Source: Escherichia coli
Lineage (GTDB): Bacteria; Pseudomonadota; Gammaproteobacteria; Enterobacterales; Enterobacteriaceae
Direction: 5' to 3' (one strand)
DNA: 64,000 nucleotides
Assembly (NCBI RefSeq): GCF_046105845.1
Contig: NZ_CP151004.1
The position numbers were made by a program. Below are positions 34,501-37,500 of this stretch, piece by piece; within the stretch, counting starts at the first letter, position 1, and each line of letters opens with the position of its first letter.

Positions 34501-37500
34501 ACCGGTACCAGATCAGGAACCTGAGGCCTGATAACTGATAAGGGCAGGGCCACTGGCTCTGCCCTTTTGCTATTCTCACCGTAACGAATCAGCGGATACC
34601 ATGATTATCAAACGCACTCCTCAAGCCGCGTCGCCTCTGGCTTCGTGGCTTTCTTATCTGGAAAACCTGCACAGTAAAACTATCGATCTCGGCCTTGAGC
34701 GCGTGAGCCAGGTCGCGGCGCGTCTTGGCGTCCTGAAACCTGCGCCATTTGTGTTTACCGTTGCGGGTACGAATGGCAAAGGCACCACCTGCCGTACGCT
34801 GGAGTCGATTCTGATGGCGGCAGGGTACAAAGTGGGCGTCTACAGTTCACCGCATCTGGTGCGTTATACCGAGCGCGTACGTGTGCAGGGTCAGGAATTG
34901 CCGGAATCGGCCCACACCGCCTCTTTTGCGGAGATTGAATCGGCACGCGGTGATATTTCCCTGACCTATTTCGAGTACGGTACGCTGTCGGCGTTGTGGC
35001 TGTTCAAGCAGGCACAACTTGACGTGGTGATTCTGGAAGTAGGGCTGGGCGGTCGTCTGGACGCAACCAATATTGTCGATGCCGATGTCGCGGTAGTAAC
35101 CAGCATTGCGCTGGATCATACCGACTGGCTGGGGCCAGATCGCGAAAGCATTGGTCGCGAGAAAGCAGGCATCTTCCGCAGCGAAAAACCGGCAATTGTC
35201 GGTGAGCCGGAAATGCCTTCTACCATTGCTGATGTGGCGCAGGAAAAAAGTGCACTGTTACAACGTCGGGGCGTTGAGTGGAACTATTCCGTCACCGATC
35301 ATGACTGGACGTTTAGCGATGCTCACGGCACGCTGGAAAATCTGCCGTTGCCGCTTGTCCCGCAACCGAATGCCGCAACGGCGCTGGCGGCACTGCGTGC
35401 CAGCGGGCTGGAGGTCAGTGAAAATGCCATTCGCGACGGGATTGCCAGCGCAATTTTGCCGGGACGTTTCCAGATTGTGAGCGAGTCACCACGCGTTATT
35501 TTTGATGTCGCGCATAATCCACATGCGGCGGAATATCTCACCGGGCGTATGAAAGCGCTACCGAAAAACGGGCGCGTGCTGGCGGTTATCGGTATGCTAC
35601 ATGATAAAGATATTGCCGGAACTCTGGCCTGGTTGAAAAGCGTGGTTGATGACTGGTATTGTGCGCCACTGGAAGGGCCGCGCGGTGCCACGGCAGAACA
35701 ACTGCTTGAGCATTTGGGTAACGGCAAATCATTTGATAGCGTGGCGCAGGCATGGGATGCCGCAATGGCGGACGCTAAAGCGGAAGATACCGTGCTGGTG
35801 TGTGGTTCGTTCCACACGGTCGCACATGTCATGGAAGTGATTGACGCGAGGAGAAGCGGTGGCAAGTAAGTTTCAGAATCGGTTAGTGGGCACGATCGTG
35901 CTGGTGGCGCTGGGGGTGATTGTACTTCCAGGGCTGCTGGACGGGCAGAAAAAACATTATCAGGATGAGTTCGCGGCTATCCCGCTGGTGCCGAAAGCGG
36001 GCGATCGCGATGAGCCTGATATGATGCCAGCCGCCACCCAGGCGTTGCCGACGCAGCCGCCGGAAGGCGCAGCGGAAGAGGTGCGGGCAGGTGATGCCGC
36101 AGCACCGTCGCTCGATCCGGCCACTATTGCAGCCAATAACACCGAGTTTGAACCGGAACCTGCACCGGTCGTCCCACCGAAGCCGAAACCGGTGGAGCCG
36201 CCTAAGCCGAAGGTTGAAGCACCACCTGCGCCGAAGCCGGTCGTGGAAGAAAAAGCAGCGCCAACGGGTAAAGCCTATGTTGTACAACTGGGCGCACTGA
36301 AAAATGCCGATAAAGTGAATGAGATTGTCGGTAAGCTGCGCGGTGCCGGTTATCGGGTTTATACGTCGCCATCCACGCCAGTGCAGGGTAAAATTACCCG
36401 TATTCTGGTTGGGCCAGATGCCTCGAAAGATAAGCTGAAAGGATCGCTGGGTGAGTTGAAGCAACTTTCTGGCTTAAGTGGCGTGGTAATGGGCTACACG
36501 CCGAATTAATACGGTCTTGCCTGATGCGACGCTGGCGCGTCTTATCAGGCCTGCGCAGGAGTAGAACCGTAGGTCGGATAAGGCGTTTACGCCGCATCCG
36601 ACACGCATTGTCCGATGCCGCAAAGGCATAAAAAGTCGATGGCGTTGAATATTTTTTCAGCGCCATTTTTATTGATGCGCGGGAAGGAAATCCCTACGCA
36701 AACGTTTTCTTTTTCTGTTAGAATGCGCCCCGAACAGGATGACAGGGCGTAAAATCGTGGGACACATATGGTCTGGATTGATTACGCCATAATCGCGGTG
36801 ATTGCTTTTTCCTCTCTGGTTAGCCTGATCCGCGGCTTTGTTCGTGAAGCGTTATCGCTGGTGACATGGGGTTGTGCTTTCTTTGTTGCCAGTCATTACT
36901 ACACTTACCTGTCAGTCTGGTTTACGGGCTTTGAAGACGAACTGGTTCGAAATGGGATTGCCATCGCGGTACTATTTATCGCTACCCTGATCGTTGGTGC
37001 TATTGTGAACTTCGTGATAGGCCAGCTGGTGGAGAAAACGGGGTTGTCAGGCACCGATCGGGTGCTGGGCGTCTGTTTCGGTGCGTTGCGCGGTGTGTTG
37101 ATTGTTGCTGCCATTCTCTTCTTTCTCGACTCCTTTACCGGGGTGTCGAAAAGCGAAGACTGGAGCAAATCACAGCTGATCCCGCAGTTCAGTTTTATCA
37201 TCAGATGGTTTTTTGATTATCTGCAAAGCTCGTCAAGTTTCTTGCCCAGAGCGTAAGTGCTCTGAGATGTGGCTTAACGAGGAAAAAGACGTATGTGCGG
37301 TATTGTCGGTATCGCCGGTGTTATGCCGGTTAACCAGTCGATTTATGATGCCTTAACGGTGCTTCAGCATCGCGGTCAGGATGCCGCCGGCATCATCACC
37401 ATAGATGCCAATAACTGCTTCCGTTTGCGTAAAGCGAACGGGCTGGTGAGCGATGTATTTGAAGCTCGCCATATGCAGCGTTTGCAGGGCAATATGGGCA

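What the first reader, a model, noticed from the sequence alone, without database searches (positions are those of the whole stretch)
36696..36711. PUR box upstream of cvpA-purF
ACGCAAACGTTTTCTT matches the PurR operator consensus and lies in the cvpA promoter, consistent with purF being co-transcribed with cvpA and repressed by PurR.
Basis: partly seen in the sequence, partly recalled or inferred. Interest (0 to 1): 0.15.

Follow-up and report, generated by a model that had tools for sequence, protein, structure and literature searches.

The report
Known PurR operator of cvpA-purF
This 16-base sequence is the long-known docking site where the E. coli purine repressor PurR shuts off the cvpA-purF-ubiX operon when purines are plentiful; it is real, textbook and not new.

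Summary
The 16-mer ACGCAAACGTTTTCTT is at 36696-36711, 56 nt upstream of the cvpA start codon. The gene order is folC-dedD-cvpA-purF-ubiX, and the organism is E. coli. K-12 MG1655 is base-for-base identical to the window across 36614-36775.

Its reverse complement, AAGAAAACGTTTGCGT, is the PurR ChIP-chip motif published for cvpA-purF-ubiX (Cho et al. 2011). A PWM built from the other 27 published sites scores it 21.8 bits. That ranks 6th of 28 bona fide sites and is 8.6 bits above any other locus in the window. Only 1 of 300 simulated 64-kb windows reached this score.

The identical 16-mer sits 54-59 nt before cvpA in 78 of 79 other Enterobacteriaceae species. The remaining species carries a PurR-compatible A-to-T change.

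The box overlaps the -35 and spacer region of the only good promoter candidate, an extended -10 (TGTTAGAAT). That placement fits repression by promoter occlusion when PurR is bound to hypoxanthine or guanine. cvpA and purF are 36 nt apart with no terminator between them, and they are syntenic in 79 of 80 species.

This is already known, and interest is low.

The parts
36696..36711 (+). [quoted passage not shown] It is an imperfect palindrome around the central CG at 36703-36704.
   Evidence: Sequence read. It is the exact reverse complement of the published ChIP-chip motif AAGAAAACGTTTGCGT. Leave-one-out PWM score is 21.84 bits, rank 6 of 28. The identical 16-mer occurs in 78 of 79 other Enterobacteriaceae species. 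It is identical in K-12 MG1655.
36716..36724 (+). Inferred extended -10 promoter element TGTTAGAAT. The -10 hexamer TAGAAT is at 36719-36724.
   Evidence: It is the only -10 candidate with 5 of 6 matches plus a TG extension that is correctly placed upstream of cvpA. The interval 36712-36725, which contains it, is 98% conserved across 70 distinct Enterobacteriaceae upstream sequences. Its function is inferred and the transcription start was not measured here.
36695..36700 (+). Inferred weak -35 position, TACGCA (3 of 6 matches, 18-nt spacer). It lies inside the left half of the PUR box.
   Evidence: This explains why the generic promoter scan, which requires at least 4 of 6 matches at -35, reported nothing. 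Inferred.
36768..37256 (+). cvpA, colicin V production protein (162 aa), the first gene of the operon.
   Evidence: NCBIfam equivalog NF008100, E = 8.9e-102. ORF.
37293..38810 (+). purF, amidophosphoribosyltransferase (505 aa), the first committed step of de novo purine synthesis.
   Evidence: NCBIfam equivalog TIGR01134, E = 9.8e-163. It starts 36 nt after cvpA with no terminator-like site in the gap. It lies downstream on the same strand in 79 of 80 species.
38905..39474 (+). ubiX, flavin prenyltransferase (189 aa), reported in the literature as the third gene of the transcription unit.
   Evidence: NCBIfam NF004685, E = 5.6e-93. No terminator-like site lies in the 94-nt purF-ubiX gap. The transcription unit is named cvpA-purF-ubiX in PMC3159470 and PMC3141248.
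36638..36667 (+). Terminator-like hairpin followed by a T-run, downstream of dedD. It marks the upstream boundary of the cvpA promoter region.
   Evidence: 12-pair stem with the tail TTTATTGATG. Function inferred.

Best explanation
The 16-bp sequence is the PurR operator (PUR box) of the E. coli cvpA-purF-ubiX operon. When purines are plentiful, hypoxanthine or guanine binds the LacI-family repressor PurR. The PurR dimer then binds this imperfect palindrome. Each helix-turn-helix reads one half-site, ACGCAAAC on the left and AAGAAAAC on the opposite strand on the right. The hinge helices enter the minor groove at the central CpG and kink the DNA. The box covers roughly -35 to -20 of an extended -10 promoter, so bound PurR blocks RNA polymerase and reduces initiation of a transcript that covers cvpA, purF and ubiX.

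Shown here: the sequence, its PWM strength, its rarity, its conservation, the gene order, and its identity to the K-12 operator. Taken from the literature: in vivo occupancy that depends on adenine, in vitro binding, and the structural mechanism. Inferred: the exact promoter elements and the transcription start.
For: The sequence is present at the stated coordinates. The flanking genes are cvpA, purF and ubiX, with folC and dedD upstream. The window is E. coli; the 103-bp promoter region is single-copy and at least 99% identical in 5387 of 5425 complete genomes, and K-12 MG1655 is identical over 36614-36775.

Cho et al. 2011 (PMC3159470, Table 1) list a PurR ChIP-chip region for cvpA-purF-ubiX with the motif AAGAAAACGTTTGCGT, the exact reverse complement. 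Binding was seen only with exogenous adenine.

The leave-one-out PWM score is 21.84 bits, rank 6 of 28, and 1 of 300 simulated windows reached it. The published consensus with at most 1 mismatch is unique in the window.

The identical box occurs in 78 of 79 other species at 54-59 nt from the ATG, and the single variant, A7T, gives an AATCG core also seen in the tsx and glyA sites. The box is the most conserved segment at 99.9%, against 84-85% for upstream intergenic DNA. Natural E. coli variants in the 103-bp region fall upstream of the box.

The box overlaps the -35 position of the TGTTAGAAT promoter. EMSA with purified PurR on cvpA-purF DNA is reported in PMC5829826. The structural mechanism and the usual promoter-overlapping position of PUR boxes are described in PMC6245113 and PMC10912719.
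Against: Nothing contradicts the explanation, but there are limits.

- The transcription start and the promoter hexamers are inferred from sequence. The generic sigma-70 scan found no promoter because the -35 is weak.
- At the phylogenetic depth sampled (Enterobacteriaceae only), the whole core promoter from about 36686 to 36735 is highly conserved. Conservation of the box is therefore not sharply separable from conservation of the promoter it overlaps.
- purR is not in the window, so the presence of the repressor in this strain is assumed from species identity.
- The right half-site deviates from the consensus (TTTTCTT against TTTGCGT). This is the natural asymmetry of the site.
Confidence: 0.97

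Rival explanations
1. The 16-mer is a chance match to the PurR consensus with no regulatory role.
For: With up to 3 mismatches allowed, about 0.7-0.95 matches per 64 kb are expected by chance, so loose consensus matches are common.
Against: The actual match is far tighter. It has 1 mismatch to the published consensus, against 0.08 matches expected. It scores 21.84 bits, reached in 1 of 300 simulated windows. It sits directly upstream of a purine biosynthesis operon, is invariant in 78 of 79 species, and is experimentally bound in vivo and in vitro in the identical K-12 and EHEC sequence.
Confidence: 0.005
2. The conservation reflects promoter function only (a -35/spacer element of the cvpA promoter), and PurR binding is incidental or physiologically minor.
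For: The box overlaps the inferred -35 position. The whole core promoter is conserved, not just the box. In the ChIP-chip data the site was occupied only when adenine was added.
Against: The -35 match is poor, at 2-3 of 6, so RNA polymerase contacts alone do not explain 16 invariant bases that form a PurR palindrome. Adenine-dependent occupancy is what a corepressor-dependent repressor should show. cvpA-purF-ubiX is listed among the previously characterised PurR-controlled promoters, and the purF operator is the reference site used for the PurR-DNA crystal structures.
Confidence: 0.02
3. The site is mainly, or additionally, an operator for a different LacI/GalR-family repressor that recognises a similar AAACGTTT core, for example RbsR, which is reported to repress purHD.
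For: LacI-family operators share a central CG and an AANCGNTT-like core (own knowledge). RbsR has been reported to repress purHD and to influence the choice between purine salvage and de novo synthesis (PMC10912719 citing Shimada et al. 2013).
Against: No retrieved paper reports RbsR or any other paralogue at cvpA-purF. The flanking positions (ACGC...) match the PurR-specific consensus, and PurR occupancy is directly shown. This would in any case add to PurR control rather than replace it.
Confidence: 0.03

Closest known systems
E. coli K-12 purF operator, the PUR box of cvpA-purF-ubiX (Makaroff & Zalkin 1985; Rolfes & Zalkin 1988; ChIP-chip in Cho et al. 2011, PMC3159470)
   Same: It is the same element. 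The 16-mer, the whole promoter and the leader from 36614 to the cvpA start are base-for-base identical to MG1655. The published motif is the exact reverse complement of the window sequence.
   Different: Nothing differs in the operator or the promoter. The only three differences from K-12 in the intergenic region lie in the upstream REP-like repeats.
Other PUR boxes of the E. coli PurR regulon (purT, purHD, purL, purMN, purC, purEK, codBA and others)
   Same: It is a 16-bp imperfect palindrome with a central CG and an AAACGTTT core. Its PWM score is in the upper third of the set. It has the promoter-overlapping position typical of the regulon.
   Different: One half-site is weaker (AAGAAAAC, with A instead of C at position 2). 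The operon's first gene, cvpA, is not a purine biosynthesis enzyme.
LacI/GalR-family operators in general (lacO, galO, the RbsR and CytR sites)
   Same: They share the architecture of a dimeric helix-turn-helix repressor on a pseudo-palindrome, with hinge-helix insertion at the central step (PMC6245113 and PMC10912719; own knowledge).
   Different: PurR needs a corepressor (hypoxanthine or guanine) to bind, rather than an inducer to release it. The half-site sequence is specific to PurR.

Membership tests
PurR operator (PUR box) of the enterobacterial pur regulon | A 16-bp imperfect palindrome matching ACGNAAACGTTTGCNT | tested here: met
   There is 1 mismatch on either strand (13 of 14 specified positions), and this is the only such site in 64 kb.
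PurR operator (PUR box) of the enterobacterial pur regulon | A PWM score within the range of experimentally bound sites | tested here: met
   The leave-one-out PWM built from the 27 other ChIP-defined motifs gives 21.84 bits, rank 6 of 28. The bona fide range is 7.4-25.1 bits. The maximum score in simulated windows averages 15.7 bits with sd 2.1.
PurR operator (PUR box) of the enterobacterial pur regulon | A central CpG step flanked by AAA/TTT, the site of hinge-helix minor-groove insertion | tested here: met
   AAACGTTT is at 36700-36707 with the CG at 36703-36704. The structural role comes from the literature and own knowledge of Schumacher et al. 1994.
PurR operator (PUR box) of the enterobacterial pur regulon | Located in or overlapping the promoter of a purine or nucleotide metabolism transcription unit | tested here: met
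   It is 56 nt upstream of cvpA-purF. It overlaps the -35 and spacer of the TGTTAGAAT promoter candidate. The promoter assignment is inferred and no transcription start was measured here.
PurR operator (PUR box) of the enterobacterial pur regulon | Conserved at the orthologous promoter in related species | tested here: met
   78 of 79 Enterobacteriaceae species carry the identical 16-mer, and 1 carries a PurR-compatible substitution. The box lies 54-59 nt from the ATG throughout. Column identity in the box is 99.9%. More distant gamma-proteobacteria were not sampled.
PurR operator (PUR box) of the enterobacterial pur regulon | Bound by PurR in a corepressor-dependent way, with repression lost in purR mutants | not testable with these tools
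   This comes from the literature for the identical K-12 and EHEC sequence: ChIP-chip occupancy only with adenine (PMC3159470) and EMSA with purified PurR (PMC5829826).
PurR operator (PUR box) of the enterobacterial pur regulon | A purR gene present in the same genome | not testable with these tools
   purR is not within the 64-kb window. Its presence is assumed from the species assignment to E. coli.
cvpA-purF-ubiX operon | Genes on the same strand, with short gaps and no intervening terminator | tested here: met
   The cvpA-purF gap is 36 nt and the purF-ubiX gap is 94 nt, and neither contains a terminator-like site. purF lies directly downstream on the same strand in 79 of 80 species, mostly with a 33-38 nt gap.
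cvpA-purF-ubiX operon | A single transcript covering the genes | not testable with these tools
   This comes from the literature only. The transcription unit is named cvpA-purF-ubiX in PMC3159470 and PMC3141248. All three genes gave similar ratios (1.85-2.12) and are listed together in one group in the in vitro run-off microarray.

The most novel reading that the evidence does not exclude
The operator is shared. Besides PurR, a paralogous LacI-family regulator such as RbsR would recognise the AAACGTTT core at cvpA-purF. Alternatively, the conserved weaker right half-site would tune this promoter to respond at a different purine level than the other pur promoters. Either reading would add a second input or a graded response to the first committed step of purine synthesis.
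Probability: 0.04. Interest if true: 0.3.

Novelty: already known. Interest (0 to 1): 0.05.

Why it matters
It matters only as a correct annotation. It marks the control point through which purine availability represses the first committed enzyme of de novo purine synthesis (PurF), together with cvpA and ubiX. The site is also the reference operator used for PurR-DNA structural work. For the genome scan it is a useful positive control: a tool-free reading identified a true transcription-factor site at exact coordinates. It does not open any new question.

Tried and rejected
- **Loose mismatch searches.** Searches with the exact site or the perfect palindrome at up to 3 mismatches gave chance expectations near 1 and did not discriminate. 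I replaced them with the published degenerate consensus at up to 1 mismatch and a leave-one-out PWM.
- **Generic promoter scan.** It found no promoter in 36400-37400. I traced this to its requirement of at least 4 of 6 matches at -35, and a targeted listing found the extended -10 TGTTAGAAT.
- **Classic papers.** Attempts to read He et al. 1990 by PubMed id and by my remembered PMC id failed because the paper is not held. The transcription start and footprint coordinates from Makaroff & Zalkin 1985 and Rolfes & Zalkin 1988 could therefore not be quoted.
- **Wrong K-12 slice.** My first K-12 slice (L001) ended inside cvpA and aligned as nonsense. I fetched the interval again and aligned it correctly.
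- **Rfam.** Gathering-threshold search of the whole window found only a tRNA at 1021-1092 and no RNA element near the site.
- **Deeper phylogeny.** Comparison with Vibrio, Pasteurellaceae or Yersinia was not pursued. The single genome-contig scan returned only the 80 closest loci, all Enterobacteriaceae, and the expensive protein searches were not justified for a site already proven experimentally.
- **Chance match.** I considered this explanation and rejected it; the reasons are given under the rival explanations.

Full report
**Observation.** Reading the window gives ACGCAAACGTTTTCTT at exactly 36696-36711 on the + strand (exact match). It lies in the intergenic region between a 222-aa ORF ending at 36509 and a 162-aa ORF starting at 36768, 56 nt before that start codon.

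**Context.** NCBIfam equivalog models identify the genes on the + strand:
- folC at 34601-35869
- dedD at 35841-36509 (the mechanical ORF call; the model aligns from residue 7)
- cvpA at 36768-37256
- purF at 37293-38810
- ubiX at 38905-39474

The organism is Escherichia coli. The 103 bp from 36668 to 36770 occur once per genome in 5425 of 5426 complete genomes, and are at least 99% identical in 5387 of them. The MG1655 reference is identical to the window from 36614 through the cvpA start. The only three differences in the intergenic region lie in the upstream REP-like repeats.

**Is it more than chance?** The loose tests, allowing up to 3 mismatches to the site or to the perfect palindrome, expect about 0.7-0.95 matches per window and carry no weight.

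The published degenerate consensus ACGNAAACGTTTGCNT (PMC3159470) with at most 1 mismatch finds only this site. It is counted once on each strand because it is palindromic. The expectation is 0.08 matches, and 2 of 100 shuffles reached two matches.

I built a position weight matrix from the 27 other 16-mers in Table 1 of Cho et al. 2011, leaving out the cvpA site itself. It scores the site at 21.84 bits on the - strand and 17.04 bits on the + strand. Scoring each of the 28 published sites by leave-one-out gives a range of 7.4-25.1 bits, and this site ranks 6th, between codBA and purR. The next-best locus in the window scores 13.2 bits. In 300 first-order-Markov simulated windows the maximum averaged 15.7 bits (sd 2.1), and only one reached 21.84.

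**Identity with the known operator.** Table 1 of Cho et al. 2011 (PMC3159470) lists a PurR ChIP-chip region assigned to cvpA-purF-ubiX, with the motif AAGAAAACGTTTGCGT at 2,428,842-2,428,857. This is the exact reverse complement of the window 16-mer. [quoted passage not shown]

In NC_000913.3 coordinates the box maps to 2,430,820-2,430,835, calculated from the cvpA start. The 1,978-bp offset from the paper's coordinates fits the difference between genome versions; that explanation is my own knowledge and was not tested.

There is independent in vitro support. Purified PurR shifted a cvpA-purF fragment (-171 to +56) from EHEC in EMSA, and a phosphomimetic Y45E variant of PurR negatively affected DNA binding (PMC5829826). 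The purF operator is also the DNA used in the PurR-corepressor-DNA crystal structures, cited in PMC6245113.

**Phylogenetic footprint.** One scan of representative bacterial genomes with CvpA returned 80 loci, all Enterobacteriaceae. They include Escherichia, Salmonella, Citrobacter, Enterobacter, Klebsiella, Raoultella, Kosakonia, Buttiauxella, Cedecea, Mangrovibacter and others.

Of the 79 loci with enough upstream sequence, 78 carry the identical 16-mer as their best PWM hit, 54-59 nt from the cvpA ATG. The exception has ACGCAATCGTTTTCTT. Its AATCG core also occurs in the published tsx and glyA sites, and it scores 21.66 bits.

The dedD-cvpA distance varies from 153 to 804 nt in the same loci, so the box is anchored to cvpA. 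Column identity over 70 distinct sequences is:
- 99.9% in the box
- 98% over 36712-36725
- 90% in the leader
- 84-85% in the upstream intergenic DNA

This supports selection on the box. At this depth, however, the whole core promoter is conserved, so the footprint alone does not separate operator function from promoter function. Three E. coli genomes that differ in the 103-bp region differ only at 36676 and 36680, upstream of the box.

**Promoter anatomy (inferred).** The generic scan found no sigma-70 promoter because it requires at least 4 of 6 matches at -35. A targeted listing finds one good candidate: TAGAAT at 36719-36724, preceded by TG at 36716-36717, giving the extended -10 TGTTAGAAT. 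The corresponding -35 position is TACGCA at 36695-36700 (3 of 6 matches), inside the left half of the box. With a start near 36731-36733 the box spans about -35 to -20.

This agrees with two published statements. PurR sites generally lie between the -35 and -10 elements (PMC3159470), and they mostly overlap the promoter (PMC6245113). A terminator-like hairpin with a T-run at 36638-36667 separates the region from dedD.

**Operon structure.** cvpA and purF are 36 nt apart, and purF and ubiX are 94 nt apart. No terminator-like site falls in either gap. purF lies directly downstream on the same strand in 79 of 80 species, usually with a 33-38 nt gap, and ubiX is present on the same strand in 70. 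Two papers name the transcription unit cvpA-purF-ubiX, and the three genes gave similar ratios in an in vitro run-off array.

**Mechanism.** The retrieved literature gives the following picture. PurR is a dimeric LacI-family repressor, and hypoxanthine or guanine act as corepressors. Binding goes through helix-turn-helix motifs, opens the minor groove and bends the operator, which reduces RNA polymerase access (PMC10912719; PMC6245113).

Applied to this site, occupancy of about -35 to -20 would occlude the promoter. It would lower transcription of cvpA, purF and ubiX when purines are abundant. Sequence strength, placement and conservation are shown here. Binding and adenine dependence come from the literature. 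The exact transcription start is inferred.

**Rivals.**
- *Chance match.* This is excluded by the statistics, the conservation and the published binding data.
- *Promoter-only conservation.* This is unlikely, because the -35 match is poor while all 16 palindromic positions are invariant.
- *Recognition by another LacI paralogue such as RbsR*, which is reported to repress purHD. This is not excluded, but nothing retrieved supports it. At most it would add to PurR control.

**Comparison and novelty.** This is not merely a member of the PUR-box family. It is the archetypal purF operator itself, unchanged from K-12. It is already known, and the interest score is 0.05.

Noticed in passing
window 36519-36550 and 36573-36602: Two REP-like palindromes (GCCTGATGCGACGC/GCGTCTTATCAGGC and GTCGGATAAGGCGT/ACGCCGCATCCGAC) lie between dedD and the cvpA promoter. 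A 261-bp query containing them hits a median of 17 places per E. coli genome, so this is a dispersed REP/BIME-type element. Two of the three differences from K-12 in this intergenic region lie between the two palindromes and the third just downstream of them.
   Followed up: partly
window 26330-26345 (+): The motif ACCAAAGCGATGGCAT, listed by Cho et al. 2011 as the PurR motif of the 'fabB-mnmC' ChIP region, lies about 400 bp inside the 406-aa ORF at 25928-27148 (presumably fabB), not in a promoter. Its leave-one-out PWM score is only 9.0 bits, well below the 15.7-bit mean maximum of random windows. As a sequence-specific PurR operator it looks doubtful.
   Followed up: partly
window 36510-36767, opposite (-) strand: PMC3141248 lists the intergenic region upstream of cvpA as transcribed in the opposite direction in an in vitro run-off microarray with RNA polymerase (ratio 1.71). 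I did not look for a divergent or antisense promoter here.
   Followed up: no
window 36638-36667: A terminator-like hairpin (12-pair stem) followed by a T-run lies downstream of dedD, and it is itself well conserved across Enterobacteriaceae. It probably insulates the cvpA promoter from dedD read-through.
   Followed up: partly
window 35841-35869: The mechanical dedD ORF starts at a TTG (35841) that overlaps the end of folC by 29 nt. The NCBIfam DedD model aligns only from residue 7, and K-12 annotates a 663-nt gene. The true start is therefore probably a few codons downstream.
   Followed up: no
window 63771-63786 (-) and 52698-52713 (+): Two sub-threshold PurR-PWM hits, CCCAAAACGGTTGCGC (13.15 bits) and ACGAACGCCTTTGCGT (12.89 bits). 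Both are below the 15.7-bit mean maximum of simulated windows, so they are most likely chance matches. I did not examine their gene context.
   Followed up: no
window 1021-1092 (-): A tRNA gene is the only Rfam match at the gathering threshold in the whole window (63.4 bits).
   Followed up: no
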